A stretch of DNA of 64,000 bases, taken from NCBI GenBank assembly GCA_016699615.1, contig CP064984.1:2383855-2447854 (forward strand), in the 5' to 3' direction. Source of the DNA: Sphingobacteriales bacterium (GTDB taxonomy: Bacteria; Bacteroidota; Bacteroidia; Chitinophagales; JADIYW01). Position numbers and translations under genes: made by a program. This document shows, one piece after another, positions 1 to 50,280 of this stretch. Within the stretch, counting starts at the first letter, position 1. Each line of letters opens with the position of its first letter. The notes beneath the pieces are model-generated. The model had not been told where the DNA came from. It saw only the letters and a program-made list of their open reading frames with translations, and ran no database searches.

Positions 1-3000
1 CAGTGGTAATGTATACACAGCATTAGCAGATGGTTGTATTGCGATTACAAGAAGTGGCGTAGTAGGTTACAACTTAGATACCTTATGTATAGTTAAGACA
101 GATACAGTAACAGGTATCAGTGATACAACAGTAGCAATTATCAGCAACTTACCGAAACGTGATACCATTAGAGATACAAATGTTATCATCACGACAGATA
201 CAGTATGTGTAGAAGTAGAGTTAGGCATGAATGCCGACAGTATCTACATCGTAGACTGTGCAGGTTCGATGAACAACAGTGGTAATGTATACACAGTAAT
301 ACCAGGCACAACATGTATCGTAGTAGATAGAAGCAATAAAGTAGGCTATAACTTAGATACATTATGTGTAGTAACAGTAGATACAACGACAGGTATTACA
401 GATACGACAGTAGTTATCATCAGTAATACACCGACAAGAGATACGATCAGAGATACGAATGTTATCTATACAACAGACACAATATGTGCTAGTATAGATA
501 ATGGTATGAGTAATATCAGAACAACGATAGTAGACTGTGCAGGAGCGATGAACAATAGTGGCAATGTATATACAGCGTTAACAGATGGTTGTATTGCGAT
601 TACAAGAAGTGGCGTAGTAGGTTACAACTTAGATACCTTATGTATCGTTAAGACAGATACTGTAACAGGCATCAGTGATACAACAGTAGCGATTATCAGT
701 AATCTACCTAAGCGCGATACGATTAGAGATACGAATGTTATCATCACGACAGACACAGTATGTGTAGATGTAGAGTTAGGCATGAATGCCGACAGTATCT
801 ACATAGTAGACTGTGCAGGCGCGATGAACAACAGTGGTAATGTATACACAGTTATCCCAGGTACGACATGTATCGTAGTAGATAGAAGCAATAAAGTAGG
901 CTATAACTTAGATACATTATGTGTAGTAACAGTAGATACAACGACAGGCATAACAGATACGACAGTAGTTATCATCAGTAATACACCGACACGTGATACG
1001 ATCAGAGATACGAATGTTATCTATACAACAGACACAATATGTGCTAGCATAGATAATGGTATGAGTAATATCGTAACGACGATAGTAGACTGTGCAGGCG
1101 CGATGAACAACAGTGGTAATGTATACACAGCGTTAGCAGATGGCTGTATTGCTATTACAAGAAGTGGCGTAGTAGGCTACAACTTAGATACCTTATGTAT
1201 CGTTAAGACAGATACTGTAACAGGCATCAGTGATACAACAGTAGCGATTATCAGTAATCTACCTAAGCGCGATACGATTAGAGATACGAATGTTATCATC
1301 ACGACAGACACAGTATGTGTAGATGTAGAGTTAGGCATGAATGCCGACAGTATCTACATCGTAGACTGTGCAGGCGCGATGAACAACAGTGGTAATGTAT
1401 ACACAGTTATCCCAGGTACGACATATATCGTAGTAGATAGAAGCAATAAAGTAGGCTATAACTTAGATACATTATGTGTAGTAACAGTAGATACAACGAC
1501 AGGCATAACAGATACGACAGTAGTTATCATCAGTAATACACCGACACGTGATACGATCAGAGATACGAATGTTATCTATACAACAGACACAATATGTGCT
1601 AGCATAGATAATGGTATGAGTAATATCGTAACGACGATAGTAGACTGTGCAGGCGCGATGAACAACAGTGGTAATGTATACACAGCGTTAGCAGATGGCT
1701 GTATTGCTATTACAAGAAGTGGCGTAGTAGGCTACAACTTAGATACCTTATGTATCGTTAAGACAGATACTGTAACAGGCATCAGTGATACAACAGTAGC
1801 GATTATCAGTAATCTACCTAAGCGCGATACGATTAGAGATACGAATGTTATCATCACGACAGACACAGTATGTGTAGATGTAGAGTTAGGCATGAATGCC
1901 GACAGTATCTACATAGTAGACTGTGCAGGTTCGATGAACAACAGTGGTAATGTATACACAGTTATCCCAGGTACGACATGTATCGTAGTAGATAGAAGCA
2001 ATAAAGTAGGCTATAACTTAGATACATTATGTGTAGTAACAGTAGATACAACGACAGGCATAACAGATACGACAGTAGTTATCATCAGTAATACACCGAC
2101 ACGTGATACGATCAGAGATACGAATGTTATCTATACAACAGACACAATATGTGCTAGCATAGATAATGGTATGAGTAATATCGTAACGACGATAGTAGAC
2201 TGTGCAGGCGCGATGAACAACAGTGGTAATGTATACACAGCGTTAGCAGATGGCTGTATTGCTATTACAAGAAGTGGCGTAGTAGGTTACAACTTAGATA
2301 CCTTATGTATAGTTAAGACAGATACAGTAACAGGCATCAGTGATACAACAGTAGCAATTATCAGTAATCTACCTAAGCGCGATACGATTAGAGATACGAA
2401 TGTTATCATCACGACAGATACAGTATGTGTAGATGTAGAGTTAGGCATGAATGCCGACAGTATCTACATCGTAGACTGTGCAGGAGCGATGAACAACAGT
2501 GGCAATGTATACACAGTTATCCCAGGTACGACATGTATCGTAGTAGATAGAAGCAATAAAGTAGGCTACAACTTAGATACTTTATGTGTAGTAACAGTAG
2601 ATACAACGACAGGCATTACAGATACGACAGTAGTAATTATTAGTAATACACCGACAAGAGATACGATCAGAGATACGAATGTTATCTATACGACAGACAC
2701 AATATGTGCGAGCATAGATAATGGTATGAGTAATATCGTAACGACGATAGTAGACTGTGCAGGTGCGATGAACAACAGTGGTAATGTATACACAGCATTA
2801 GCAGATGGTTGTATTGCGATTACAAGAAGTGGCGTAGTAGGTTACAACTTAGATACCTTATGTATCGTTAAGACAGATACCGTAACAGGCATCAGTGATA
2901 CAACAGTAGCAATTATCAGTAACTTACCGAAACGTGATACTATTAGAGATACAAATGTTATCATTACGACAGATACAGTATGTGTAGATGTAGAGTTAGG

Positions 3001-6000
3001 CATGAATGCAGACAGTATCTACATAGTAGACTGTGCAGGTTCGATGAACAACAGTGGTAATGTATACACAGTTATCCCAGGTACGACATGTATCGTAGTA
3101 GATAGAAGCGATAAAGTAGGTTACAACTTAGATACATTATGTGTAGTAACAGTAGATACAACGACAGGTATTACAGATACGACAGTAGTAATTATTAGTA
3201 ATACACCGACAAGAGATACTATCAGAGATACGAATGTTATCTATACGACAGACACAATATGTGCGAGCATAGATAATGGTATGAGTAATATCGTAACGAC
3301 GATAGTAGACTGTGCAGGTGCGATGAACAACAGTGGTAATGTATACACAGCATTAGCAGATGGTTGTATTGCGATTACAAGAAGTGGCGTAGTAGGTTAC
3401 AACTTAGATACCTTATGTATAGTTAAGACAGATACAGTAACAGGTATCAGTGATACAACAGTAGCAATTATCAGCAACTTACCGAAACGTGATACCATTA
3501 GAGATACAAATGTTATCATCACGACAGATACAGTATGTGTAGAAGTAGAGTTAGGCATGAATGCCGACAGTATCTACATCGTAGACTGTGCAGGTTCGAT
3601 GAACAACAGTGGTAATGTATACACAGTAATACCAGGCACAACATGTATCGTAGTAGATAGAAGCAATAAAGTAGGCTATAACTTAGATACATTATGTGTA
3701 GTAACAGTAGATACAACGACAGGTATTACAGATACGACAGTAGTAATTATTAGTAATACACCGACAAGAGATACGATCAGAGATACGAATGTTATCTATA
3801 CAACAGACACAATATGTGCTAGTATAGATAATGGTATGAGTAATATCAGAACAACGATAGTAGACTGTGCAGGAGCGATGAACAATAGTGGCAATGTATA
3901 TACAGCGTTAACAGATGGTTGTATTGCGATTACAAGAAGTGGCGTAGTAGGTTACAACTTAGATACCTTATGTATCGTTAAGACAGATACTGTAACAGGC
4001 ATCAGTGATACAACAGTAGCGATTATCAGTAATCTACCTAAGCGCGATACGATTAGAGATACGAATGTTATCATCACGACAGATACAGTATGTGTAGAAG
4101 TAGAGTTAGGCATGAATGCCGACAGTATCTACATCGTAGACTGTGCAGGTTCGATGAACAACAGTGGCAATGTATACACAGTAATACCAGGCACAACACT
4201 ATCGTAGTAGATAGAAGCAATAAAGTAGGCTATAACTTAGATACATTATGTGTAGTAACAGTAGATACAACGACAGGTATTACAGATACGACAGTAGTAA
4301 TTATTAGTAATACACCGACAAGAGATACGATCAGAGATACGAATGTTATCTATACAACAGACACAATATGTGCTAGCATAGATAATGGTATGAGTAATAT
4401 CGTAACGACGATAGTAGACTGTGCAGGCGCAATGAACAACAGTGGCAATGTATACACAGCATTAGCAGATGGTTGTATTGCTATTACAAGAAGTGGCGTA
4501 GTAGGTTACAACTTAGATACCTTATGTATCGTTAAGACAGATACTGTAACAGGCATCAGTGATACAACAGTAGCGATTATCAGTAATCTACCTAAGCGCG
4601 ATACGATTAGAGATACGAATGTTATCATCACGACAGATACAGTATGTGTAGATGTAGAGTTAGGCATGAATGCCGACAGTATCTACATCGTAGACTGTGC
4701 AGGTTCGATGAACAACAGTGGTAATGTATACACAGTAATACCAGGCACAACATGTATCGTAGTAGATAGAAGCAATAAAGTAGGCTATAACTTAGATACA
4801 TTATGTGTAGTAACAGTAGATACAACGACAGGTATTACAGATACGACAGTAGTTATCATCAGTAATACACCGACAAGAGATACGATCAGAGATACGAATG
4901 TTATCTATACAACAGACACAATATGTGCTAGTATAGATAATGGTATGAGTAATATCAGAACAACGATAGTAGACTGTGCAGGAGCGATGAACAATAGTGG
5001 CAATGTATATACAGCGTTAACAGATGGTTGTATTGCGATTACAAGAAGTGGCGTAGTAGGTTACAACTTAGATACCTTATGTATCGTTAAGACAGATACT
5101 GTAACAGGCATCAGTGATACAACAGTAGCGATTATCAGTAATCTACCTAAGCGCGATACGATTAGAGATACGAATGTTATCATCACGACAGATACAGTAT
5201 GTGTAGAAGTAGAGTTAGGCATGGATGCTGACAGTATCTACATCGTAGACTGTGCAGGCGCGATGAACAACAGTGGCAATGTATACACAGTTATCCCAGG
5301 CACGACATGTATCGTAGTAGATAGAAGCGATAAAGTAGGCTATAACTTAGATACATTATGTGTAGTAACAGTAGATACAACTACAGGTATTACAGATACA
5401 ACAGTAGTAATCATTAGTAATACACCGACACGTGATACGATCAGAGATACGAATATTATCTATACGACAGACACAATATGTGCTAGCATAGATAATGGTA
5501 TGAGTAATATCGTAACGACGATAGTAGACTGTGCAGGCGCGATGAACAACAGTGGTAATGTATACACAGCGTTAGCAGATGGCTGTATTGCTATTACAAG
5601 AAGTGGCGTAGTAGGCTACAACTTAGATACCTTATGTATCGTTAAGACAGATACTGTAACAGGCATCAGTGATACAACAGTAGCGATTATCAGTAATCTA
5701 CCTAAGCGCGATACGATTAGAGATACGAATGTTATCATCACGACAGACACAGTATGTGTAGATGTAGAGTTAGGCATGAATGCCGACAGTATCTACATCG
5801 TAGACTGTGCAGGCGCGATGAACAACAGTGGTAATGTATACACAGTTATCCCAGGTACGACATGTATCGTAGTAGATAGAAGCAATAAAGTAGGCTATAA
5901 CTTAGATACATTATGTGTAGTAACAGTAGATACAACGACAGGCATAACAGATACGACAGTAGTAATTATTAGTAATACACCGACACGTGATACGATCAGA

Positions 6001-9000
6001 GATACGAATGTTATCTATACAACAGACACAATATGTGCTAGCATAGATAATGGTATGAGTAATATCGTAACGACGATAGTAGACTGTGCAGGCGCGATGA
6101 ACAACAGTGGTAATGTATACACAGCGTTAGCAGATGGCTGTATTGCTATTACAAGAAGTGGCGTAGTAGGCTACAACTTAGATACCTTATGTATCGTTAA
6201 GACAGATACTGTAACAGGCATCAGTGATACAACAGTAGCGATTATCAGTAATCTACCTAAGCGCGATACGATTAGAGATACGAATGTTATCATCACGACA
6301 GACACAGTATGTGTAGATGTAGAGTTAGGCATGAATGCCGACAGTATCTACATAGTAGACTGTGCAGGTTCGATGAACAACAGTGGTAATGTATACACAG
6401 TTATCCCAGGTACGGCATGTATCGTAGTAGATAGAAGCAATAAAGTAGGCTATAACTTAGATACATTATGTGTAGTAACAGTAGATACAACGACAGGCAT
6501 AACAGATACGACAGTAGTTATCATTAGTAATACACCGACACGTGATACGATCAGAGATACGAATGTTATCTATACAACAGACACAATATGTGCTAGCATA
6601 GATAATGGTATGAGTAATATCGTAACGACGATAGTAGACTGTGCAGGCGCGATGAACAACAGTGGTAATGTATACACAGCGTTAGCAGATGGCTGTATTG
6701 CTATTACAAGAAGTGGCGTAGTAGGCTACAACTTAGATACCTTATGTATCGTTAAGACAGATACTGTAACAGGCATCAGTGATACAACAGTAGCGATTAT
6801 CAGTAATCTACCTAAGCGCGATACGATTAGAGATACGAATGTTATCATCACGACAGATACAGTATGTGTAGATGTAGAGTTAGGCATGAATGCCGACAGT
6901 ATCTACATCGTAGACTGTGCAGGCGCGATGAACAACAGTGGTAATGTATACACAGTTATCCCAGGTACGACATGTATCGTAGTAGATAGAAGCAATAAAG
7001 TAGGCTATAACTTAGATACATTATGTGTAGTAACAGTAGATACAACGACAGGTATTACAGATACGACAGTAGTAATTATTAGTAATACACCGACAAGAGA
7101 TACGATCAGAGATACGAATGTTATCTATACAACAGACACAATATGTGCTAGCATAGATAATGGTATGAGTAATATCGTAACGACGATAGTAGACTGTGCA
7201 GGAGCAATGAACAACAGTGGCAATGTATACACAGCATTAGCAGATGGTTGTATTGCTATTACAAGAAGTGGCGTAGTAGGTTACAACTTAGATACCTTAT
7301 GTATCGTTAAGACAGATACTGTAACAGGCATCAGTGATACAACAGTAGCGATTATCAGTAATCTACCTAAGCGCGATACGATTAGAGATACGAATGTTAT
7401 CATCACGACAGATACAGTATGTGTAGATGTAGAGTTAGGCATGAATGCAGACAGTATCTACATAGTAGACTGTGCAGGTTCGATGAACAACAGTGGTAAT
7501 GTATACACAGTTATCCCAGGTACGACATGTATCGTAGTAGATAGAAGCGATAAAGTAGGTTACAACTTAGATACATTATGTGTAGTAACAGTAGATACAA
7601 CGACAGGTATTACAGATACGACAGTAGTAATTATTAGTAATACACCGACAAGAGATACTATCAGAGATACGAATGTTATCTATACGACAGACACAATATG
7701 TGCGAGCATAGATAATGGTATGAGTAATATCGTAACGACGATAGTAGACTGTGCAGGTGCGATGAACAACAGTGGTAATGTATACACAGCGTTAGCAGAT
7801 GGTTGTATTGCGATTACAAGAAGTGGCGTAGTAGGTTACAACTTAGATACCTTATGTATAGTTAAGACAGATACAGTAACAGGTATCAGTGATACAACAG
7901 TAGCAATTATCAGCAACTTACCGAAACGTGATACCATTAGAGATACAAATGTTATCATCACGACAGATACAGTATGTGTAGAAGTAGAGTTAGGCATGAA
8001 TGCCGACAGTATCTACATCGTAGACTGTGCAGGTTCGATGAACAACAGTGGTAATGTATACACAGTAATACCAGGCACAAACATGTATCGTAGTAGATAG
8101 AAGCAATAAAGTAGGCTATAACTTAGATACATTATGTGTAGTAACAGTAGATACAACGACAGGTATTACAGATACGACAGTAGTAATTATTAGTAATACA
8201 CCGACAAGAGATACGATCAGAGATACGAATGTTATCTATACAACAGACACAATATGTGCTAGTATAGATAATGGTATGAGTAATATCAGAACAACGATAG
8301 TAGACTGTGCAGGAGCGATGAACAATAGTGGCAATGTATATACAGCGTTAACAGATGGTTGTATTGCGATTACAAGAAGTGGCGTAGTAGGTTACAACTT
8401 AGATACCTTATGTATCGTTAAGACAGATACTGTAACAGGCATCAGTGATACAACAGTAGCGATTATCAGTAATCTACCTAAGCGCGATACGATTAGAGAT
8501 ACGAATGTTATCATCACGACAGATACAGTATGTGTAGAAGTAGAGTTAGGCATGAATGCCGACAGTATCTACATCGTAGACTGTGCAGGTTCGATGAACA
8601 ACAGTGGCAATGTATACACAGTAATACCAGGCACAACATGTATCGTAGTAGATAGAAGCAATAAAGTAGGCTATAACTTAGATACATTATGTGTAGTAAC
8701 AGTAGATACAACGACAGGTATTACAGATACGACAGTAGTAATTATTAGTAATACACCGACAAGAGATACGATCAGAGATACGAATGTTATCTATACAACA
8801 GACACAATATGTGCTAGCATAGATAATGGTATGAGTAATATCGTAACGACGATAGTAGACTGTGCAGGCGCAATGAACAACAGTGGCAATGTATACACAG
8901 CATTAGCAGATGGTTGTATTGCTATTACAAGAAGTGGCGTAGTAGGTTACAACTTAGATACCTTATGTATCGTTAAGACAGATACTGTAACAGGCATCAG

Positions 9001-9615
9001 TGATACAACAGTAGCGATTATCAGTAATCTACCTAAGCGCGATACGATTAGAGATACGAATGTTATCATCACGACAGATACAGTATGTGTAGATGTAGAG
9101 TTAGGCATGAATGCCGACAGTATCTACATCGTAGAGGGTGCAGGTTCGATGGACAACAGTGGTAATGTAGACACAGTAGGACCAGGCACAACGTGTATGG
9201 TAGTAGAGAGAAGCAGGAAAGTAGGCTAGAACTGAGATACATTATGTGTAGTAACAGTAGATGCAACGACAGGTATTACAGATACAACAGTAGTAATCAT
9301 TAGTAATACACCAAGCAGAGATACGATCAGAGATACGAATGTTATCTATACAACAGACACAATATGTGCGAGCATAGATAATGGTATGAGTAATATAGTA
9401 ACGACGATAGTAGACTGTGCAGGTTCGATGAACAACAGTGGCAATGTATACACAGCATTAGAAGATGGCTGTATTGCGATTACAAGAAGTGGCGTAGTAG
9501 GCTACAACTTAGATACCTTATGTATCGTTAAGACAGATACAACGACAGGCATCAGTGATACAACAGTAGCGATTATCTCTAACTTACCAAACTGTAAAGA
9601 TATCATTAGAGATAC
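1..9615 (+). repeat. Coding tandem array, at least 17 units of 555 bp (279-bp A subrepeat + 276-bp B subrepeat), continuing past the left edge
   Basis: ATGAATGCCGACAGT recurs at 227, 782, 1337, 1892, 2447, 3002, 3557, 4112, 4666, 5221, 5776, 6331, 6886, 7441, 7996, 8552 and 9107. The B subrepeat (ATGAGTAATATC) lies 279 nt after each. Units are near-identical and the last one degenerates at ~9600. Confidence 0.95.
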
Positions 9616-11806
9616 AGTATTACCATGTAGAGGAGAAGAGGAAGTAGCTTATTGTTTACCATTAGATATGAAAACATTACAACAATACCATATTTACATA
9701 GATGGTACAAAACAAGCAATGGCATTTAGTTCATTAAGTGGTTGTGGTGAAGAGGAAGTAGCTGGTGGTTATAGCTTTAATGCTAATCAATACCTAGATG
9801 GTGTAGGGCATATATTAGAGCGTTGGGGTATAGATAGTAATAGAACTTTATCACCAAATATCAGCTTTACAACATTAGAAGAGTTAGTAGTGTATATGAA
9901 TAGTGTAGATGCTCAAGGCATGTGGTATGCAGAAGATATGATAATCAAAGCAGGTAATCCAAGCAGATTGTATAATACAGGAATAGGACTACAAATCTTT
10001 GCATTAGATCCAAGAGTTGGAACATTCATAAATGAATACAATAGCTATGTTACCTATACAGGAAGTAAATTAATGCTTGATAGAGGTTGTCATATGGTTG
10101 TGTTAGAAGATACAATAACAGGCTGTGTAGACAGTGCTCTAATTTGTGTAGAATGTGTAGAATGTGATAGCATAATAGAAGAGACTTATGTTGAAGTGCC
10201 TTGTGTAAATGGAGAAGGTCAATACTGTTTACCAATTGCATTTGTAGATTTAACAAACTACAATGTTTATATTGATGAGACAAGATTGAATACATTTGAT
10301 ATGAGTGGCTGTGATTATGATACAACAGCAGGGTATGACTTCAGTACACATATCTTATCAGGAGGTTATAACAATGGTGTATTACACAGATTAGATAGTG
10401 TTAGAATAAATGGAGTAAAATATGGTGCATTTAGCTATACATCTTACACTGAGTTAGTAGCTTACTTAAATAGCATAGATCCATTAGGAGCATGGGTAGT
10501 AGATGGAGATAGAGTAGCAGGTGGTCGCCGAGGAGGCATATATGGCGATATGCGTATCTTAAGTACAAATACAGGTGTAAGACATACGGTAGGATACAAT
10601 ATCAATGAATTACCTAAAGGTAGTGAGGTTATCATTCCATCAGGCTGTCATTGGGTAGTAGTAGAGGGCAAGGAGAGTGGCTGTAGAGATAGTGTTCGAG
10701 TATGTGTAGTAGGCTGTACAGTTAAAGATACGATCAGAGACACGACATGTTATAACTGTCCAGTACCAGTATGTGTAGACACAACAGAGTTACCAGGTAC
10801 AGTAATTAGTATTACAACATGTGATACGGATAACAAAGTAACGATAGATGGCTTGAATCCATGTATAACATACACACCATCAAAAGGACAAACAGGTAAT
10901 GATACGACATGTATAGTAGTATGTGATGACAAAGGCTACTGCGATACAACGATTATCATCATTACTGTAGAGACACCAAGAGACACGATAAGAGATAGCT
11001 TACCAGTGAATAGCGTAGATAGTATTTGTGATTTCTTACAACCACGAGGAACAGACATCACAGTAACGAGCTGTGCAGGTCAGACCTCAGGAACAGGAAA
11101 TTACATCACATGGACTATCAACGAGCAAGGTTGCTTAGTATACACAGCAGGTAAAGTAAAAGGTACAGATACCTTATGTATTATGAGCTGCATTACAGGC
11201 ACAGATACATGTATAGAGACTACAGTTTATGTAACCGTAACAGGTATACCACCGATAGCAATTAATAATGACACAACAACGAAAGTTAATGTACCAGTAG
11301 TTATAAATGTTATAGGCAATGATATCCAGACAGACAGTGATCCATTACAATTATGTGATGATGCTATAGTTACATACCCAGTAAATGGAACATTAAGTAA
11401 TATCAATACACCATCAGGAAATGTGACTTATACACCAAATACAGACTTTACAGGAGTAGACAGCTTCCAATATGTGATATGTGATCCAGATGGTAATGAT
11501 ACAGCATGGGCATATGTAAGAATAGTAAGAGAAAATGAGTGTGAGTTGTATGATGCTTTCTCACCGAATGGCGATGGAGTAAATGATTACTATACGATAC
11601 CATGTCCAAGTTCAAGTGCGATAGTATTCTGTGTGTACAACAGATGGGGCATAGAGGTTTACAGAAATGAGGATTACCGAGGCGAGTGGGATGGTAGATA
11701 CAAAGGTGCACCACTTCCAGATGGTACATACTACTATGTTATCAAGTATATAAACAGTGCAGGAGATGATATTAATAAAGCAGGGTTTATCGTTATACAT
11801 AGATAA
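2..11806 (+). pseudogene. Giant T9SS-dependent (type-B CTD) repeat surface protein / adhesin-like, 5' end outside window; ORF broken by 1-nt indels near 4199 and 8080 and by TAG/TGA stops at 9227-9235
   Basis: Frame 2 is open from nt 2. The four ORF-track pieces (227-4207, 4090-8100, 8276-9229, 9386-11806) encode the same 93+92-aa repeat and join seamlessly if the lesions are repaired. The unique C-terminal region has Cys-rich Ig/cadherin-like modules (an ..INNDTTTKVNVPVVINVIGND..DSFQYVICD.. tandem-95-like module) and ends in a CHU_C/T9SS type-B sorting domain. Confidence 0.85.
11531..11803 (+). other. T9SS type-B C-terminal sorting domain (gliding-motility-associated CTD / CHU_C) of the giant protein
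   Basis: The terminal 91 aa are ENECELYDAFSPNGDGVNDYY...YNRWGIEVY...WDGRYKGAPLPDGTYYYVIKY...GFIVIHR. This matches the FSPNGDGxND / NRWG / WDG / G.Y.Y signature of type-B CTDs. Confidence 0.85.
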
Positions 11807-11924: not shown

Positions 11925-12929
11925 ATGATAAGATTAAATCAAATGAGGATAACAGTTGTAGCGATGTTGTTATTAATGACATCGATGCTGTATGGCCAAC
12001 AGGAGCCTCAGTACACCCAATACATGTACAATAAGTTGCCTATGAATGCTGGTTACACAGGCTCACGCGAGGTATTAAGTATCCGCGCCTTGTATCGCAA
12101 TCAGTGGGCAGGCATCAAGGGTGCACCACAGACAGCGACGTTTGCCATTCATAGTCCATTGAAGAAGGAATCCTCAGCGATAGGTTTCTATTTAGTCAAT
12201 GACAGACTAGGCGTTACAAACCAGACATGGTTTGATGCTAGCTATGCCTATAGAGTAAACTTAGGCAAAGGCGTTAAGTTGAGTTTAGGAATAAATGCAG
12301 GTATATTGTGGTACAAGAGTAATCTAACAGACTTAAACATAGAAAATCAACAGGATGTAGTTTTTCAGCAGAATGTAAGTAGAATACTACCAGATGTAGG
12401 CGCAGGTTTATATTTATACCATAAATATTGGTATTTTGGAGCAAGTGTACCAAACTTTATCAAAGGCGATTTACACAATAAGGATGTTATCAAAGCTTAT
12501 GCTAATGATAATACAGGGAGTTTTCTAAGTGCACACCGTACACCACATTTTATTACCATGGCAGGAGGCGTAATACCAGCAGGCAAGGTATTAAAAATAC
12601 GTCCACAGATGATGTACAGATATATAGCCAGTGCGGAGCAGAAGATACCCCATACCTTAGATTTTAACTTGAGTTTATTGATTTATGATAGAGTGAATAT
12701 AGGCGGAAGCTACAGAACATCATTCCACAATAAGAAGACAGGCTTAACGAACAGTGATAGCTTTGATGCTTTATTAGAAGTATGGCCAACGAAGCAGTTA
12801 TTGATAGGATTTGCGTATGATTATACACTAACGAAATTAGGAGATTACAACAAAGGAAGCTATGAGGTTATCTTAGGCTATGATTTTAATTTTGAGAAGA
12901 AACGAGTAATAACGCCGAGATATTTTTAA
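11925..12929 (+). CDS. Type IX secretion system membrane protein, PorP/SprF family
   Basis: Signal peptide followed by the QQEPQYTQYMYNKLPMNAGYTGS motif and ...LYRNQWAGIKGAPQT..., typical of the PorP/SprF N-terminus. It sits immediately downstream of a type-B CTD cargo gene. Confidence 0.88.
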   Translation: MIRLNQMRITVVAMLLLMTSMLYGQQEPQYTQYMYNKLPMNAGYTGSREVLSIRALYRNQWAGIKGAPQTATFAIHSPLKKESSAIGFYLVNDRLGVTNQTWFDASYAYRVNLGKGVKLSLGINAGILWYKSNLTDLNIENQQDVVFQQNVSRILPDVGAGLYLYHKYWYFGASVPNFIKGDLHNKDVIKAYANDNTGSFLSAHRTPHFITMAGGVIPAGKVLKIRPQMMYRYIASAEQKIPHTLDFNLSLLIYDRVNIGGSYRTSFHNKKTGLTNSDSFDALLEVWPTKQLLIGFAYDYTLTKLGDYNKGSYEVILGYDFNFEKKRVITPRYF

Positions 12930-12983: not shown

Positions 12984-15523
12984 ATGAATACAATCAAACA
13001 GCTTAAACGTCAGATATTGCTAGTGCTATTACTAATGGTTATAGGAGTTTCTAGTATAGACGCACAGGTTATCGAAGGAGGCACATCAGGAGCAGGTACC
13101 ACAGTAGGAGGTATAGGCAAAGCCCAGAAGTTGTATAATGATTTAGCTTACTATGAAGCGATACCATTATATGAGAGTTATCTAAAGAAGCACGATAGCA
13201 CAAGAGCGATGTGTGAGCTAGGCGATTGCTACCGATTAACCTCAAACTTTGAGCGTGCAGAATATTGGTATGGCAAGGCAGTAGAGAAAGGCGATGTAGA
13301 ACCGGAGTATAAGTTATACTATGCAAAGATGTTGCAGGCGAATGAGAAATACGAAGAAAGCAAAATGGTATGCTACCTACAAACAGAGTGTTCCAGAAGA
13401 CAAGAGAGCAGGCAATCAGTTAAAAGCGAGTGCAGATTATGGACAGTACTTATTAACGAGAGATAGATATCAGATAAAGAATTTAAGTTTTAATACTTCG
13501 GGTTATGATTTTGCACCCATGTGGTTTGAGAAAGGACTAGTCTATTCTAGTTCTCGAGACAGTTCAAAGGCAATAGGAAGAGAACACACATGGACAGGCA
13601 CACAGTTTTTTGATATGTATTATGTAGAAGGCGAGAAGACGACCTTTGGCAAGCCAAAACAGATGAAAGCAGATGCATCGACAAAATACCACGAAGCAGC
13701 AGCTACCTTTACCCCAGACAATAAGAAAGTATATTTTACGAGAAACAATTATTATCATGGTAAGGCAAAGACGAGTGATGATAAGATAATCAAATTAAAG
13801 ATATTTGAGTCAGATGTAGAAGGTACGACATGGAAGAATGACAAACCATTCCAATACAACAATGATGAATATAGTGTAGGACATCCAGCACTTACACCAG
13901 ATGGTAATACGATGTATTTTATTAGCGATATGCCAGGTGGCTATGGAGGCACAGATGTTTATATTACAAAGAAAGAAGGCGAAAGCTGGAGCACACCCAA
14001 GAACTTAGGCGAGCAGATCAATACAGAAGGCATGGAGATGTTCCCGTATGTATCTGAAGATGGTGTACTATATTTTGCTAGTGATGGACATGGTGGCTTA
14101 GGCGGATTGGATATCTTTAGAGTAAAGCCAGATGCTAAGACAAATCAATATGGTAAGATCAGAAATATAGGCGCACCAATCAATAGTAGTTATGATGATT
14201 TTAGCTTAGTATATGGACAAGACAAGTCAGTAGGTTATTTTACCTCAAACAGACCAGAAGGGCAAGGCTTAGATGATATCTATAGTTTTGAGGATGATGG
14301 TATTTACTTAGAAGGAATTGTAGTAGATGCAAAGACAGGCGAGCCGATATGCAACAGTAAAGTTATAATGAAGGCAAAGCTGACACAGAGTGAAGAAGGA
14401 AGAATGGAAACGGAGTGTGATGGCGAGTTTGAGTTTGGCGTAGTAAGAAACATGGATTATTGTTTTGTTGCGAGCGCAGAAGGATATAGTAGCAATGACA
14501 AAGTATGTGCTACGACAAAAGGTGTAAAAGCAGGCGAGACGGTATATGTAAAAATACCATTAGATAAAGGACAAGAGTATGCTATGAGTGTACAGGTCTT
14601 GGGCAAGAGCTTAAAATCATTACAAAATAAGAGTATAGATAGCAAGAGTCCAACATCACCGAAGAGTATAGACAGCAAGAATATAGAAAACAAAGATATA
14701 GAGAATAAGAGCATAGATAGCAAAAAGTCCAACATCACCAAAGAGTATAGACAGCAAAAGTCCAGAAGACTTAAAGCCACTAGCAGGAGCAAAGATACTA
14801 TTGTCTAGCAAGTGTGAAGGCTGGACCAAAGCGTTGGTAGCAGATGAGAATGGTAAGATATGCGAGATAGTAAGATGTGATTGTGATTATATCATAGTTG
14901 CCAATGCACAAGGCTATTTGCCAGGCTATACAGAAGTTATCAAAGATGATGGCGATTGTAAGATAGACAGAAAGTGTGGAGTAAATCCAAGAGAAGAAGA
15001 AGTAATCTTAGATCCAATACCAGGCATGCCAGATGGCTATGTCTATGATCCAGAGACAGGTAAGTGGGTAGATCCAAAGACAGGCGATCAGATGGATGCG
15101 CCAAGTATAGAATTGAGAGACATTTACTATGACTTTGATAAATGGTACATAAGAGAGGAGAGTGAGCGAGACTTGAATAAGTTATTAGGTTTCTTGCAAG
15201 AGAATCCAGAAGCAATAGTTGAGATAGGCTCACACACAGATGCGAGAGCGCCGTATGATTACAATATCAAGTTATCACAACGCAGAGCACAAAGTGTAGT
15301 AGATTGGTTGATAGCGAGAGGCATTAGTAGAAATAGATTAAAACCAAAAGGATATGGCGAGACAAAGCCAGTGAATGGCTGTACAGATGGAGTAGTATGT
15401 ACGGAGTATGAACACCAGAGAAACAGAAGAACAGAGTTTAAGGTCATAGGTGGTAAATTTGATATTAGCTCACTACAAAGATTTGATATGCAAGTGGATC
15501 CGTGTAAACAATGTCCATTCTAA
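12984..15523 (+). pseudogene. PorE-like OmpA-family protein (TPR + TolB/PD40-like beta-propeller + CRD-like + OmpA_C), split into three ORFs by frameshifts at A-runs near 13362 and 14722
   Basis: ORFs 12984-13466, 13321-14808 and 14801-15523 are contiguous parts of one protein. It has N-terminal TPR, PD40-type repeats (..TPDGNTMYFISD..GGLGGLDIFRV) and a C-terminal OmpA_C (..GSHTDARAPYDYNIKLSQRRAQSVVDWL..NRRTEFKV). Confidence 0.8.
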
Positions 15524-15678: not shown

Positions 15679-17396
15679 ATGTCAAATACATATTCAAACA
15701 ATAAGATATCTGGTTCAGAAGCAGTCATTCGTTCATTAGTAGAAGAAGGAATTGATTATATATATGGATATCCAGGTGGAGCAATTATGCCAATATATGA
15801 TGCACTATGGCATTATTCTGATAAAATTACACATATTCTAACAAGACACGAACAAGGCGCAACACATGCAGCAGAAGGTTATGCAAGAGTAAAGGGAAAA
15901 GCAACAGCAGTTTTTGCTACTTCTGGTCCAGGTGCAACAAATTTAGTTACAGGCATAGCAGATGCAATTATGGATTCAACACCAATGGTTTGTATTACTG
16001 GTCAGGTACCAAAACATCTTTTAGGTACTGATGCATTTCAGGAAACAGATGTCGTAGGCATTACAATGCCAATTGTAAAGTGGAATTATCAAGTAACTAA
16101 TGCAGCAGAAATTCCAGCAATTATTGCAAAAGCATTTTATATAGCCAATACAGGCAAACCAGGTCCAGTTTTAATTGATATTACAAAAAATGCACAGTTT
16201 GAGATGATGGAATGGAGTGGATATGAGAAGTGCGAATCTGTAAGAGCATATGATGCAAAACCAGTTATTAATATTGAGAAAATAAAACAGGCAATGCAGT
16301 AATTAATGCAGCAAAGAAACCATTGATAGTTGCTGGTCAAGGTGTAATTATTTCTAAAGCAAAAATAGAATTAGAAGCATTATCTGAAAAATCTGGTATT
16401 CCAGTTTGCTTAACGATGCAAGGCTTAGGTGCTTTTAATCCAAAAGATAAAAACTTTGTAGGCATTCCAGGTATGCATGGCAATTATTCAGTAAATATAA
16501 AAATGAATGAATGTGATGTAATGATTGCCATAGGTATGCGTTTTGATGATAGAGTAACTGGCGATGTGACAAAATTTGGAAAACAAGCTAAAATTGTTCA
16601 TATTGAAATAGACCCAGTTGAGATTGATAAAGTTTTAAAAACTGAAGTTGGTGTATTAGGTGATGCAAAAGAAGTTTTAGAACAATTATTACCATATATT
16701 AATGAAAATAATCATCAAGGATGGATAAATAGTTTCAAAGAATTAGATAAAGCAGAATTGGACAAAGTAATAGATACTGCCATTCATCCAAAAACTGGTG
16801 GTATAAAAATGGGCGAAATCATGCATTTGATTGATGAAAAAACAAATGGAAACGCAATCATAGTTCCAGATGTTGGACAACATCAGATGTATGCCATGCG
16901 ATATTATACATATAATTTGCCAAACTCTTGGGTAAGTAGTGGTGGATTAGGTACAATGGGATTTTCATTGCCAGCAGCAATTGGTGCGCAAATGGCAGCA
17001 CCAGAGAGAACAGTGGTAGCAATAATAGGAGATGGCTGTTTCCAAATGACGATACAAGAATTAGGCACAATTTGGCAACAAAAATTACCAATCAAAATAG
17101 TGATTTTCAATAATAATTATTTGGGAATGGTAAGGCAATGGCAACAATTATTCTTTGATAATAGATACTCGCAAGTAGAATTAAAAAATCCAGATTTTGT
17201 TGCAATTTCAAAAGGATTTGGTATAGCATCATCTAAAGTAGCTGAAAGAGAAAACTTGAGTGCTGCGTTAGATGAAATGTTTGCACATGATGGACCATAT
17301 GTTTTGGAAGTTACAGTAGAGAAGGAAGAAAATTTATTTCCGATGGTGCCAAGTGGCGCAGCATGTAGTGATGTGATTTTAGAACCAGCACAATAA
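15679..17396 (+). pseudogene. ilvB: Acetolactate synthase large subunit (ThDP-dependent), split by a frameshift near 16298
   Basis: N-terminal piece is [32 protein letters not shown]. The frame-0 continuation [16 protein letters not shown] begins at ~16299. The C-terminal piece has GGLGTMGFSLPAAIGA and IGDGCFQM. Confidence 0.85.
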
Positions 17397-19786: not shown

Positions 19787-20698
19787 ATGATGAAGAAAAT
19801 GTTCTTTTTATTGATGTTGTTTGTGATTAAAATAAGCAATGCACAAGATAAATTAGTAGATTTTAATAGCAATACAATATTGGTTAAAATTATAGAAGTT
19901 GGAGATGATTATATTCTATTTAAAAAATATGATAATCTTGAAGGGCCAGATTATAAAGAAAGTAAATCAAATTATTCAACAGTAGTATTTGAAAATGGGA
20001 AAGTAGAAGTACTTAATAAAAAATATGTAGGTAAAAAAGATAAATCAAACAGACCTAGATTTAAATTAGTTAATAACTTTAAATACAATACAATAGAACT
20101 AGACCTTCTGGCATTTTACACAAATGATGTGCTTGTACAATATACAAGATTTTTAAAGAAAAAAAATATAGCAATCACCATTCCATTCAGAGCTGGATGG
20201 ATTAGAAACAGATACAATGGTATTTATCTAATCGATTTGCCAAATTATTATCCAGAAAGTTATTATAACAACAGTAGTAGTTATTATTATTACGACAATT
20301 ATAATTATAAAAAATCACATGGATATAAATTTTTAACTGGTGCAAATTTCAAGTTTTTCTGGAGAGATAAATATAAAGTAAGAGGCTATGCTGGACCAGA
20401 ATTTATTGTCGGTTTTTTGAGCACTAAGGCATCAAATTATAATTATAGTTATTATGGAAATGGTTCTTATTATCAATATAGATATACAAAAGGCTTTATT
20501 GGCTTGATGGGAACTGTAGGTATGATAGCTCAACCAACAAATATGCTTAGCTTTAAATTAGAATGGGCAGGTGGTTTTGTTGGAGTATTAGGAAAAAAGA
20601 ATATAAGCTACAGTAATTCATATTATAGTTATAATTTTTACAATCAAAAAGTAAGAGGAATTGGTAGAATGACGTTTAGTATAGGATTCAATTTCTAG
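19787..20698 (+). CDS. Hypothetical secreted / outer-membrane beta-barrel-like protein with a Tyr/Asn-rich region
   Basis: Signal peptide (..VIKISNAQD), alternating aromatic pattern, low-complexity NYYPESYYNNSSSYYYYDNYNY, and a C-terminal ..FSIGFNF (terminal Phe beta-signal). Confidence 0.45.
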   Translation: MMKKMFFLLMLFVIKISNAQDKLVDFNSNTILVKIIEVGDDYILFKKYDNLEGPDYKESKSNYSTVVFENGKVEVLNKKYVGKKDKSNRPRFKLVNNFKYNTIELDLLAFYTNDVLVQYTRFLKKKNIAITIPFRAGWIRNRYNGIYLIDLPNYYPESYYNNSSSYYYYDNYNYKKSHGYKFLTGANFKFFWRDKYKVRGYAGPEFIVGFLSTKASNYNYSYYGNGSYYQYRYTKGFIGLMGTVGMIAQPTNMLSFKLEWAGGFVGVLGKKNISYSNSYYSYNFYNQKVRGIGRMTFSIGFNF

Positions 20699-30519: not shown

Positions 30520-31151
30520 ATGACCAAGAAAGAAAAGGCATCTTTTGTTGTAGATATATTAAATCAATTATTTCCAGAAACACCAATACCATTGGATCAC
30601 AAAGATGCATACACCATGTTGATAGCTGTCTTGCTTTCAGCACAATGCACAGATGAACGCGTAAATAAAATAACACCATTGTTGTTTAAGAAAGCAGATA
30701 CACCAAAAAAATGATACAACTTTCTGTAGAAGAAATTAAAGAAATAATTAGACCATGTGGTTTGTCTCCACAAAAATCAAAAGCAATATATGAGTTGTCA
30801 AAAATTTTAGTAGAACAATATAATTCTAATGTTCCAAGTACATTTGAGGCATTAGAAGCATTGCCGGGTGTTGGACACAAAACTGCATCTGTTGTGATGA
30901 GCCAGATTTTTGGCTATCCAGCTTTTCCAGTAGATACACATATTCACAGGCTTGCTTATCGTTGGGGTTTGAGTAATGGCAAGAGCGTAACACAGACAGA
31001 AAAAGATTTAAAGCATATATTTAATGAAAATTTATGGAATAAATTACATTTGCAAATTATATATTATGGTAGAACATATTGTAAGGCAAGACAACATATA
31101 GTAGAGAATTGTGTAATGTGTAAAAATATTGGAGTTAAGAGCAGAATTTAA
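30520..31151 (+). pseudogene. nth: Endonuclease III, split by a frameshift in an A-run at ~30705-30711
   Basis: ORF 30520-30714 (..LLSAQCTDERVNKITPLLFKKADTPKK*) continues directly as MIQLSVEEIKEIIRPCGL..LPGVGHKTASVV..VDTHIHR in the next frame. Confidence 0.85.
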
Positions 31152-37869: not shown

Positions 37870-38202
37870 TTATAAAAACCCAAGTTCTAATTTTGCTTCT
37901 TCAGTCATCATATCTTGATCCCAAGGTGGGTCGAAAAGTAATTTCAACATTGCAACTTCATTTACGCCATCAATTGCTTTTATTTTTTGCTCTACTTCAG
38001 CTGGCAAACTTTCTGCTGCTGGACAGTTTGGTGCTGTTAATGTCATTAATATATGCACGTCATTGTTTAGATTTACGTTTATTTCGTAGATTAATCCTAA
38101 TGCATATATATTTACTGGAATTTCTGGATCGTAGATAGTTTGTATCTGAGTGATACATTCGTCTTTAATTTCCATAAAAGTTTTATTTAATACATTTTCC
38201 AT
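37870..38202 (-). CDS. Fe-S assembly protein, DUF59/SufT (MIP18) family
   Basis: ..IYDPEIPVNIYALGLIY..MTLTAPNCPAAE.. is the hallmark DUF59 motif. Confidence 0.8.
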   Translation of the reverse strand: MENVLNKTFMEIKDECITQIQTIYDPEIPVNIYALGLIYEINVNLNNDVHILMTLTAPNCPAAESLPAEVEQKIKAIDGVNEVAMLKLLFDPPWDQDMMTEEAKLELGFL

Positions 38203-39590: not shown

Positions 39591-40810
39591 TTAACTCAAC
39601 ATTTTTTTTGCTTTTAAAATTCCATCATACAATAAATCTATTTCTTCTTTCGTATTATAAAACGCAAAAGATGCTCTCGTGTTCCTGGTATAGAATAAAA
39701 ATCCATCACTGGTTGCGCACAATGGTGTCCTGTTCTGATGGCAATGCCCATATTGTCTAAAATAACGCCAACATCATACGGATGAATACCATCTAACAAA
39801 AATGAAATAACAGATGATTTATTTGTTGCTGTACCATAAATTTTTAATCCATCTATTGATGATAATTTCTCTGTGGCATATTGCAATAATTCGTCTTCGT
39901 ATTTTTTTATATTTTCTAAACCTAAATTTTCTATATATTCTATTGTTGCGTTAAGTGCAATGCAGCCAGCAATATTTGGTGTTCCAGCTTCAAACTTAAA
40001 TGGCAAATCATTAAAAACTGTACCTTTGAATGATACAGATTTTATCATATCTCCACCACCTTCAAATGGTGGTATTTCGTTTAGTATATCTTCTTTTCCA
40101 TATAATATTCCAGTACCTGTTGGTCCATAAATTTTATGGCCACTAAATGCTAAAAAATCACAATCTAATGCTTGAACATCAATTGAAATATGTTGTATAG
40201 CTTGTCTTGCATCTATCAATATTTTCGCATTATTTTTTTTAGCTATCGCAATAATTTCTCTTATTGGATTGATAGTACCTAATGCATTAGATACATACGT
40301 AATTGATACTAATTTTGTTTTTGTTGTAATGATTTTTTCTGCATCTTCAATTTTAATACTACCATCTTCTTGCAATGGAATTACTTTTAAGATACATTTT
40401 TTTTCTTCGCACAGCATTTGCCATGGCACAATATTAGAATGGTGTTCCATTTCTGTCACCACAATTTCATCACCTTCATGAATAAATTTTTTACCAAAAG
40501 TATAGGCAATCAAATTTATACTATTTGTTGTACCTTTTGTAAATATTATTTCGTGCTCATGTTTTGCATTGATAAATTGTTGAACTTTTTTCCTTGTTTG
40601 TTCGTATAAATCTGTGCCAATTTGCGATAGGTAATGCACACCACGATGTATGTTTGCATTTTGATGTTCGTAGAAATATGTTTCAGCATCAATTACTGCT
40701 TGTGGCTTTTGAGTTGATGCGCCATTGTCTAAATAAACAAGTTGCTTGCCACGAATTTTTTCATTTAATATTGGAAATTGATTTCTTATATGTTGTATGT
40801 CTAATGCCAT
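39591..40810 (-). pseudogene. sufS: Cysteine desulfurase SufS, with a frameshift about 30 codons from the C-terminus (~39671-39686)
   Basis: ..YLDNGASTQKP.., ..FSGHKIYGPTG.. (PLP Lys), ..RTGHHCAQP... The alternate frame gives the expected tail ..ASFAFYNTKEEIDLLYDGILKAKKMLS* ending at 39591. Confidence 0.88.
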
Positions 40811-48859: not shown

Positions 48860-48959
48860 AATTCAAAATTACTGATATCAAACAATAAAATAAAATTATT
48901 GTTGAGTTAAGGTTTGTATTTCTAGAAAAATAAAATTTTAACTAATGTATTTTTGAGTA

Positions 48960-50149: not shown

Positions 50150-50280
50150 ATATAGTACATTTTCTATTCCAAAATTCATCATATAAACATTAACTTCAAA
50201 TTAATATTTATCTTCTTATTTTCGCAACAAGGTAGCAAAGAAAAACTTTCTACTTATTACTAAATACTTAATAATTTTTT

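What the first reader, a model, noticed from the sequence alone, without database searches (positions are those of the whole stretch)
4190..8090. Two compensating 1-nt indels at the same codon position of two A-subrepeats, 7 units apart
In intact units the sequence is CCAGGCACAACATGTATCG (..PGTTCIV..). At ~4199 it reads ..ACAACACTATCG (TGT replaced by CT, net -1). At ~8079-8081 it reads ..CACAAACATGTATCG (an extra A, net +1). The 3.9 kb between them still encodes perfect repeats, but in frame 1 instead of frame 2. Taken literally, translation from upstream stops at 4207 and the product would lack the C-terminal T9SS signal. Both lesions hit homologous positions of the same unit variant, and each has an intact twin in the duplicated segment (8639 and 3640). 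This suggests either very recent events or consensus errors, and perhaps a site prone to slippage or mis-joining.
Basis: partly seen in the sequence, partly recalled or inferred. Interest (0 to 1): 0.55.

Follow-up and report, generated by a model that had tools for sequence, protein, structure and literature searches.

The report
Sequencing-error frameshifts in repeat adhesin gene
The two one-base frameshifts are really in the deposited sequence, but they are almost certainly Nanopore consensus errors at one error-prone motif (ACATGT) inside a roughly 14-kb repetitive surface-protein gene, so they are an assembly artefact, not biology.

Summary
In an array of 555-bp units, ACATGT reads ACACT at 4196-4200 (-1), and AA reads AAA at 8079-8081 (+1). 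This splits one giant T9SS type-B cargo gene into separate ORFs.

"Compensating" is only arithmetic. GenBank annotates the gene as five CDS. A third -1 lesion lies at the same site just upstream of the window. Two stop codons at 9227 and 9233 lie in a patch where 14 of 14 private changes are N->G.

The window comes from a single-contig 2.99-Mb MAG (locus tags IPK18_). I compared 43 kb of unique window sequence with 18 short-read contigs at 98.5-99.98% identity. The window alone carries about 10 more indels, about 1 per 4.3 kb, the same density as in the array. They break SufS, AspRS, FolC, a TPP enzyme, HhH-GPD and others. They sit in homopolymers, at GCNGC (p=3e-6) and at ACATGT (2 of 14 sites, p=0.004).

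The sufS error (ACATGT->CGTGT) matches the upstream lesion as inferred from its protein tail. It also closely resembles the reverse complement of the 4199 lesion.

Verdict: these are systematic long-read consensus errors, probably linked to DNA modification, and left unpolished in near-identical repeats. The reads were not available, so this is not proven for the two sites themselves.

The parts
1..9590 (+). Tandem array of 555-bp (185-aa) units, each made of two related sub-repeats of about 92 aa. It belongs to one giant gene, runs off the 5' end of the window and has an 8-unit higher-order period.
   Evidence: TRF found period 276 with 34.5 copies. No Pfam or NCBIfam family matches a unit.
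4196..4200 (+). Lesion of -1: ACATGT reads ACACT (T->C plus loss of G). The frame-2 reading then stops at TAG 4205-4207.
   Evidence: The twin unit at 8546 is intact and differs only here.
8079..8081 (+). Lesion of +1: AA reads AAA immediately 5' of ACATGT (8081-8086). The frame-1 reading stops at TAG 8098-8100.
   Evidence: The twin unit at 3551 is intact and differs only here.
9136..9263 (+). Patch in the last A sub-repeat where 14 of 14 window-private changes are N->G (6 T>G, 5 A>G, 3 C>G). It creates TAG 9227-9229 and TGA 9233-9235, the third break of the gene inside the window.
   Evidence: One search compared it with unit u15 and the independent contig L001. One search shows these are the only stops left after the two indels are repaired.
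9591..11806 (+). Unique C-terminal part of the same gene. It holds Big_9/cadherin-like domains and the T9SS type B sorting domain (nt 11543-11797).
   Evidence: CHU_C 1.1e-22 and Big_9 1e-20. TIGR04131 1.9e-13. The product equals QQR97445.1.
9808..9813 (+). Unique-sequence ACATGT site that the window reads as GCATAT (A1->G, G5->A). These are the same two changes seen as private variants of units u11 and u02.
   Evidence: Three relatives read GGACATGTATT here, and a fourth (L003) begins inside the motif and reads CATGTATT.
39678..39682 (+). Unique-sequence ACATGT site in sufS that the window reads as CGTGT (loss of A plus A3->G). SufS is truncated from 406 to 390 aa. The signature is the same as the one inferred for the upstream lesion of the giant gene.
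   Evidence: L017 and L018 read GCTCTACATGTTCC against GCTCT-CGTGTTCC in the window.
11925..12929 (+). PorP/SprF-family T9SS outer-membrane protein gene, the usual partner of a type B cargo gene.
   Evidence: PF11751 1.8e-69 and TIGR03519 6.6e-68. The product equals QQR97446.1.
12984..15523 (+). OmpA-family gene (846 aa in relatives) that the window splits into three ORFs. The causes are a -2 lesion at 13358 (GCGGC site) and a +1 lesion at 14722 (A5 against A4).
   Evidence: Five of 5 and 3 of 3 covering relatives disagree with the window.

Best explanation
The two indels are base-level consensus errors of a long-read (Nanopore R9.4.1-type) metagenome assembly. They are not features of the organism.

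The real gene is most likely one open frame of about 4,700 codons. It would encode a signal peptide, an N-terminal domain, about 20 repeats of 185 aa, Big_9/cadherin-like domains and a T9SS type B sorting domain. A PorP/SprF gene follows it.

Both lesions sit at the palindrome ACATGT, which occurs once per unit. This assembly miscalls ACATGT repeatedly. The likely reason is that the DNA is modified there, as it also appears to be at GCNGC. That step is inferred.

The errors survived short-read polishing because the units have near-identical twins. Accurate short reads align best to the error-free copy, so the erroneous copy stays unpolished. That step is also inferred, from how such polishers behave.
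For: (1) Source. ORF products in the window equal QQR97443.1-QQR97446.1 exactly. These belong to a single 2,986,948-bp MAG contig with locus tags IPK18_. Every short-read contig recovered for this species ends in or before the array, so the 2.99-Mb contig must be a long-read assembly.

(2) Background error rate. I compared 43.1 kb of unique window sequence with 18 short-read contigs at 98.5-99.98% identity. The window alone has indels at 13358, 14722, 15591, 16294, 30704, 39677, 51852 and 59679. Every covering relative disagrees with the window, with 2 to 5 relatives per site. At 39677 the two relatives are two assemblies of a single sequencing run. A further indel at 49481 is covered by one relative. 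That is about 1 per 4.3 kb, against 2 per 9.4 kb in the array. All but one (the intergenic 15591) break genes that are intact in the relatives: the OmpA-like gene (twice), a TPP enzyme (572 aa split into 207+357), HhH-GPD (210 into 64+146), SufS, an MFS transporter, AspRS (581 to 526) and FolC.

(3) Indel-to-substitution ratio. L013 differs from the window over 17 kb by 4 substitutions and 3 indels. L016 differs over 9.1 kb by 1 and 1. That ratio is an error signature, not an evolutionary one.

(4) Motif link. In unique sequence, ACATGT has window-private changes at 2 of 14 sites (p=0.004). GCNGC has them at 6 of 66 sites (p=3e-6).

(5) Matching signatures. The sufS error ACATGT->CGTGT equals the lesion inferred from the QQR97441.1 tail PGTRVS*. 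It closely resembles the reverse complement of the 4199 lesion (ACACT, reverse complement AGTGT). The changes at 9808/9812 (A1->G, G5->A) equal the private variants of u11 and u02. A paralogue starts MIRTCIVVCDD, which implies a +A before CATGT like the lesion at 8080.

(6) No decay. The lesion is the only difference from each twin unit. After repair, frame 2 is open from position 2 to 9227.

(7) No homopolymer option. The unit has no homopolymer longer than 3, so motif-type errors are the ones to expect there.

(8) Precedent. Modification motifs, including GCWGC/GCSGC, cause systematic ONT errors (PMC10687267). R9.4.1 indels fragment gene calls (PMC9262707). Short-read polishing fails in repeats (PMC8812927).
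Against: No reads were available, so neither lesion was tested directly.

No independent assembly covers units u07 or u14. Both metagenome scans, including the all-forms control, found nothing, so they had no power.

Twelve of the 17 ACATGT-type sites of the array inside the window are normal.

The +A signature at 8080 has no counterpart at a unique site.

The sufS comparison rests on one sequencing run assembled twice, at 99.4-99.65% identity.

The link of IPK18_ to the Nanopore project PRJNA629478 is inferred. The supplementary table is truncated and does not show a 2,986,948-bp MAG.

DNA modification at ACATGT is inferred only from error patterns.
Confidence: 0.88

Rival explanations
1. The lesions are real and very recent frameshift mutations. 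The giant adhesin gene would be a fresh pseudogene in this strain, and ACATGT would be a true mutational hotspot, for example at a methylated or restriction-type palindrome.
For: The lesions are present in the deposited sequence. They recur at one site. G->A changes at the motif could come from deamination of a methylated cytosine. Large repeat adhesins are often dispensable.
Against: The same reasoning would make SufS, AspRS, FolC and other genes pseudogenes in this strain only. Contigs 99.96-99.98% identical to the window have them intact. That rate implies several hundred frameshifts in a 3-Mb genome. The 3.9 kb between the lesions shows no decay. No known mutational process gives a substitution plus an adjacent 1-nt deletion at a palindrome.
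Confidence: 0.07
2. The lesions are scars of a structural mis-assembly. The array would have been wrongly expanded or stitched, for example by duplicating an 8-unit block, and the indels would mark the joins.
For: There is an 8-unit higher-order period with near-identical twins; u00 equals u08, and u05-u07 are nearly the same as u13-u15. The reads may be shorter than the 10.5-kb array.
Against: The lesions are 7 units apart, not 8. One duplication gives one junction, not two. The blocks are not simple copies: u01 against u09 and u04 against u12 differ at 14-18 sites. The same lesion signature occurs at unique ACATGT sites far from any repeat.
Confidence: 0.03
3. The lesions are a programmed switch. 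They would act as phase variation by slipped-strand mispairing, or be bypassed by ribosomal frameshifting, so that the full-length protein is still made or is turned on and off.
For: Surface adhesins are classic phase-variable genes, and the lesions recur at one site.
Against: There is no repeat tract. The run is only AA/AAA, and the other lesion is TG->C. There is no X XXY YYZ heptamer or +1 shift site in CCA GGC ACA ACA CTA TCG TAG or in CCA GGC ACA AAC ATG TAT (read directly). The net shift across the gene is -1, and two nonsense codons follow.
Confidence: 0.02

Closest known systems
Modification-mediated systematic errors in Nanopore consensus sequences (Chiou et al. 2023, PMC10687267; Dabernig-Heinz et al. 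2024, PMC11610573)
   Same: The errors recur at short, conserved, partly palindromic motifs and contradict short-read data. A GCWGC/GCSGC-type motif is hit, as in the Listeria cases. The miscalls differ from site to site within one motif.
   Different: Those reports describe mainly substitutions in isolates. Here several events are a substitution plus a 1-nt indel, the second motif is ACATGT, and modification itself was not measured.
Residual R9.4.1 homopolymer indels that fragment gene calls in MAGs (Sereika et al. 2022, PMC9262707)
   Same: The window has private, mostly deletion-type indels in A/T runs of 4-8 (14722, 15591, 30704, 49481, 59679). They split genes that are intact in the relatives.
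   Different: The two lesions of this finding are not in homopolymers. The repeat unit has no run longer than 3.
Blind spot of alignment-based short-read polishing in repeats (Polypolish paper, PMC8812927)
   Same: The errors persist in units that have an error-free, near-identical twin 4.4 kb away.
   Different: In this assembly errors also persist in unique sequence, so polishing was weak overall, not only in repeats.
SprB-type giant T9SS type B cargo proteins with a PorP/SprF partner
   Same: The gene has a type B C-terminal sorting domain, a very long repetitive extracellular region and a PorP/SprF gene immediately downstream.
   Different: The 185-aa repeat matches no Pfam or NCBIfam family, including the SprB repeat. 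The function was not tested.
Phase-variable contingency loci
   Same: It is a surface protein gene interrupted by 1-nt indels at a recurrent position.
   Different: There is no homopolymer or short tandem repeat tract at the site.

Membership tests
Long-read consensus error (assembly artefact) | The same assembly shows an excess of frameshifting indels in conserved single-copy genes. | tested here: met
   There are about 10 private indels in 43 kb of unique sequence. They break the OmpA-like gene, a TPP enzyme, HhH-GPD, SufS, an MFS transporter, AspRS and FolC.
Long-read consensus error (assembly artefact) | The discrepancy is absent from independent accurate assemblies of the same strain or species. 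| tested here: inconclusive
   This is met for every comparable site in unique sequence, where all 1-5 covering relatives disagree with the window. It is also met for the two A-sites present in L001. No independent contig covers units u07 or u14 themselves.
Long-read consensus error (assembly artefact) | The errors depend on context, with the same motif and signature at unrelated loci. | tested here: met
   ACATGT is hit at 2 of 14 unique sites (p=0.004) and GCNGC at 6 of 66 (p=3e-6). The sufS signature CGTGT equals the upstream lesion as inferred from its protein tail, and closely resembles the reverse complement of the 4199 lesion.
Long-read consensus error (assembly artefact) | The record was produced from error-prone long reads. 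| tested here: inconclusive
   The source is a single 2.99-Mb MAG contig that spans a 10.5-kb near-identical array. The indel spectrum is biased to deletions in homopolymers. The link to the CANU/R9.4.1/Racon/Medaka pipeline of PMC8012365 is inferred from the locus-tag series and was not found in the truncated supplement.
Modification-mediated Nanopore error | The DNA is modified at the motif. | not testable with these tools
   This needs raw signal or a whole-genome-amplified control. Only the error pattern is available.
Phase-variable contingency locus | A homopolymer or short tandem repeat tract at the indel site, long enough for slippage. | tested here: not met
   The site is CACAACATGT. 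The longest run in the unit is A3. One lesion is TG->C.
Programmed ribosomal frameshift | A slippery heptamer or a known +1 shift site at the frame change. | tested here: not met
   The codons at the sites are CCA GGC ACA ACA CTA TCG TAG and CCA GGC ACA AAC ATG TAT. Neither contains a slippery motif.
T9SS type B cargo protein | A C-terminal type B sorting domain (TIGR04131 / PF13585). | tested here: met
   PF13585 at 1.1e-22 (80 bits, cut-off 27) and TIGR04131 at 1.9e-13 (50 bits, cut-off 35).
T9SS type B cargo protein | An adjacent PorP/SprF-family gene. | tested here: met
   The gene at 11925..12929 matches PF11751 at 1.8e-69 and TIGR03519 at 6.6e-68.
T9SS type B cargo protein | An N-terminal signal peptide. 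| tested here: inconclusive
   QQR97441.1 starts MRKIIQLKSNKQLFKKSGLLLIALSLSLLSYSV. It looks like a signal peptide by eye, but no predictor was run.
Diversity-generating retroelement (considered for the N->G patch at 9136-9263) | Changes are confined to template adenines. | tested here: not met
   The changed bases are 6 T, 5 A and 3 C, and all become G.

The most novel reading that the evidence does not exclude
ACATGT would be a genuine mutational hotspot in this bacterium, for example damage or repair at a methylated or restriction-type palindrome. Because one copy sits in every repeat unit, giant T9SS adhesin genes would be switched off, and perhaps on again by conversion from twin units, at high frequency.
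Probability: 0.04. Interest if true: 0.55.

Novelty: not a real feature. Interest (0 to 1): 0.08.

Why it matters
There is little biological significance. The practical value is a warning. In the public record, this adhesin gene of about 4,700 codons is split into five 'hypothetical proteins' (QQR97441.1-QQR97445.1). Roughly one gene in four or five nearby is also broken by consensus errors.

Analyses of pseudogenes, gene length or adhesin repertoires that use this MAG, or similarly produced MAGs, should correct frameshifts first.

A by-product is an inference that this uncultured Bacteroidota strain modifies ACATGT and GCNGC. That could be checked in the raw signal.

Tried and rejected
(1) An exact look-up of the 806-aa C-terminal ORF and of three other window ORFs in the gene-position index found nothing. 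P0004 and P0005 were also not indexed, so the DNA of the upstream lesion and of the paralogues could not be read. Those lesions are inferred from protein termini.

(2) Two scans of GTDB representative genomes found no relative. One used the C-terminal protein and one used an all-forms DNA pattern of the site.

(3) A JGI metagenome scan used a pattern that matches both lesions but not the intact form. It gave 0 hits (the pattern was validated on the window). The control pattern for all forms also gave 0 hits, so the negative result carries no weight.

(4) The homologue search found only 15 proteins. None is an independent assembly of this array. More distant homologues, including one from another MAG with the same series of locus tags, also end in out-of-frame tails or carry internal out-of-frame stretches.

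(5) A direct link of IPK18_ to PRJNA629478 was not found in the paper's truncated supplement or by text search.

(6) Racon or Medaka window-boundary artefacts were considered and set aside. The lesions are 3,881 bp apart, which does not fit 500-bp or 10-kb windows.

(7) A Dcm-like CCAGG motif lies 8-13 nt upstream of the lesions. It was set aside because it is too far away, and 21 CCWGG sites in unique sequence show no private change.

(8) DGR mutagenesis as the cause of the N->G patch was rejected. A two-colour-chemistry poly-G artefact is unlikely if the project used HiSeq X. The patch remains unexplained.
Full report
**What is in the sequence**

Positions 1-9590 are a tandem array of 555-bp units. 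Each unit encodes 185 aa as two related sub-repeats. TRF reports period 276 with 34.5 copies. An anchor search places unit starts at 221, 776 … 9101. All are 555 bp apart except 554 for the unit at 4106 and 556 for the unit at 7990.

At 4187 the sequence reads CCAGGCACAACACTATCG. At 8071 it reads CCAGGCACAAACATGTATCG. The intact form is CCAGGCACAACATGTATCG. The mechanical ORFs are 227..4207 (frame 2), 4090..8100 (frame 1), 8276..9229 and 9386..11806 (both frame 2). The stretch between the lesions translates as clean repeats.

**What the gene is**

The last ORF ends in a T9SS type B sorting domain (PF13585 1e-22; TIGR04131 2e-13), preceded by Big_9/cadherin-like domains. The next gene is a PorP/SprF family member. 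The repeat unit itself matches no curated family.

Exact protein look-ups identify the source as an NCBI MAG named 'Sphingobacteriales bacterium'. It is a single contig of 2,986,948 bp with locus tags IPK18_. The gene is annotated there as five consecutive CDS:
- QQR97441.1, 492 aa, with an N-terminus that looks like a signal peptide
- QQR97442.1, 1603 aa, whose last 1401 residues equal the window's frame 2 up to 4204
- QQR97443.1, 1336 aa
- QQR97444.1, 317 aa
- QQR97445.1, 806 aa

If repaired, the gene would be about 14 kb, or about 4,700 codons.

**'Compensating' does not hold**

QQR97441.1 ends …NVYTVIPGTRVS*. That tail is the -1 frame at exactly the same site, in the unit two positions upstream of the window. 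It implies ACAACATGT -> ACACGTGT. The gene therefore carries -1, -1 and +1 lesions, a net shift of -1.

After both window lesions are repaired in silico, frame 2 is open from position 2 to 9227. The only remaining stops are TAG 9227 and TGA 9233. Both lie in a 128-bp patch (9136-9263) where all 14 window-private differences from the neighbouring unit and from the independent contig L001 are N->G.

In any case, a ribosome coming from upstream stops at 4207. The +1 lesion at 8080 cannot rescue anything.

**The recurrence at one site is not chance**

Among 16 units there are 15 unit-private changes. Five of them (four events) fall in aligned columns 89-95:
- +A in u14
- A->G in u11
- T->C plus loss of G in u07
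- G->A in u02, which turns a conserved Cys into Tyr

The permutation p is about 0.001. The site is the 6-bp palindrome ACATGT.

Two paralogous loci of the same MAG show more of the same. QQR98830.1 starts MIRTCIVVCDD. Against window 10895-10925 (…ACGACATGTATAG…), that implies an extra A just before CATGT, as at 8080. QQR98919.1 ends …NVYSYPRYGMYRSR*. That implies a -2 lesion about 20 nt upstream plus the A->G change before CATG.

**Is the assembly trustworthy?**

Exact look-ups of neighbouring proteins retrieved 18 short-read contigs from activated-sludge and other metagenomes. They are 98.5-99.98% identical to the window. All contigs that approach the array break in or at its edge.

Across 43.1 kb of unique sequence, the window alone carries the following indels:

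| Position | Change in window | Context | Relatives disagreeing |
|---|---|---|---|
| 13358 | -2 | GCGGC | 5/5 |
| 14722 | +A | A5 vs A4 | 3/3 |
| 15591 | -T | T run | 3/3 |
| 16294 | A for GC | GCAGCTGC | 4/4 |
| 30704 | -A | A7 vs A8 | 2/2 |
| 39677 | -A plus A->G | ACATGT | 2/2 (same run) |
| 49481 | -T | T run | 1/1 |
| 51852 | -G | GCGGC | 2/2 |
| 59679 | -T | T7 vs T8 | 4/4 |

The rate is about one per 4.3 kb, the same as in the array (2 in 9.4 kb).

All but one (the intergenic 15591) break genes that are intact in the relatives:
- the 846-aa OmpA-family gene, twice
- a 572-aa TPP enzyme
- HhH-GPD
- SufS
- an MFS transporter
- AspRS
- FolC

Contig L013 differs from the window over 17 kb by 4 substitutions and 3 indels. 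L016 differs over 9.1 kb by 1 and 1. That ratio, and frameshifts in genes such as aspS, are not credible as biology for a strain whose near-identical relatives are intact.

**Why this site**

The unit has no homopolymer longer than 3, so the usual Nanopore error cannot occur there.

The non-homopolymer errors of this assembly are bound to motifs. In unique sequence, GCNGC carries window-private changes at 6 of 66 sites (p=3e-6). ACATGT carries them at 2 of 14 sites (p=0.004).

The two unique ACATGT cases reproduce the array anomalies:
- At 9808/9812 the window reads GCATAT where three relatives read ACATGT and a fourth, starting inside the motif, reads CATGT. The changes A1->G and G5->A are the private variants of u11 and u02.
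- In sufS the window reads CGTGT for ACATGT. That is identical to the inferred upstream lesion. The 4199 lesion ACACT, read on the other strand as AGTGT, shows the same A3->G with one of the two preceding bases lost.

Systematic, motif-bound Nanopore errors caused by DNA modification are documented, including at GCWGC/GCSGC (PMC10687267).

I infer that ACATGT and GCNGC are modified in this organism, but I did not show it. I also infer that the errors persisted because alignment-based short-read polishing is unreliable in repeats (PMC8812927). Each lesion-bearing unit has a twin that differs from it only by the lesion, so accurate reads would align to the intact twin.

**Likely origin of the record**

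The locus-tag series, the naming and the activated-sludge relatives fit the MAG set of Singleton et al. 2021. That pipeline used CANU on R9.4.1 flip-flop reads, Racon, two rounds of Medaka and one Racon round with HiSeq X reads (PMC8012365).

I could not confirm the link. The supplementary table is truncated and does not list a 2,986,948-bp MAG. The same laboratory later stated that R9.4.1 indels fragment gene calls (PMC9262707).

**Rival explanations**

- Real recent mutations would require the same explanation for a dozen broken housekeeping genes. They are also contradicted by the lack of any decay between the lesions.
- A structural mis-join does not fit. The lesions are 7 units apart, not 8, the blocks are not simple copies, and the signature occurs at unique loci.
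- Phase variation and programmed frameshifting lack a repeat tract or a slippery site.

**Limits**

No reads were available, and no independent assembly covers units u07 and u14. The collection scans had no power. The N->G patch is unexplained.

**Verdict**

The cause is an assembly artefact with about 0.88 confidence. The interest is low.

Noticed in passing
window 9136-9263: All 14 window-private differences in this 128-bp patch are N->G (6 T>G, 5 A>G, 3 C>G). They create TAG 9227 and TGA 9233 in the last A sub-repeat. The patch is not in contig L001 or in the neighbouring unit. It is not DGR-like. It is probably an artefact of unknown origin.
   Followed up: partly
window 13358, 16294, 39945, 40206, 51852: The window-private indels and substitutions outside homopolymers cluster at GCNGC (GCGGC, GCAGCTGC, GCTGC). 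Six of 66 sites are hit, p=3e-6. This suggests a GCNGC-type DNA modification in this organism that disturbs Nanopore base-calling.
   Followed up: partly
window 12984-15523, 15679-17396, 30520-31151, 39638-40810, ~48900-50250, 50281-51861, 58792-~60000: Seven neighbouring genes are split or truncated by window-private indels but are intact in all short-read relatives. They are the OmpA-family gene, a TPP enzyme, HhH-GPD, SufS, an MFS transporter, AspRS and FolC/Mur ligase.
   Followed up: yes
window 221-9100: The array has an 8-unit (4,440-bp) higher-order period. u00 equals u08, and u05/u13, u06/u14 and u07/u15 differ at 1-2 columns. Other offsets differ at 17-26 columns. Whether this is real or an assembly duplication could not be tested.
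   Followed up: partly
outside the window (QQR98829.1, QQR98830.1, QQR98917.1, QQR98919.1 of the same MAG): The MAG has at least two further loci with the same repeat family and sorting domain, and an identical second PorP/SprF copy. Their cargo genes are also fragmented, with breaks at or near the same ACATGT-type motif.
   Followed up: partly
P0003, P0011 (IPL21_12715/12725, Saprospirales MAG), P0002, P0006, P0007: Distant homologues of the repeat protein in other metagenome assemblies also end in out-of-frame tails. One (P0011) contains an internal out-of-frame stretch of about 45 codons between two compensating shifts. Fragmentation of this gene family in assemblies appears to be common.
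   Followed up: no
window 11831, 11866, 19774, 20281-20283, 53376, 37940-37953: Some indels are shared by only part of the relatives, or lie in a divergent patch. Examples are a 3-bp TTA-repeat difference, a 33-bp insertion in L014 and single T differences between genes. These look like genuine strain polymorphisms rather than errors.
   Followed up: no
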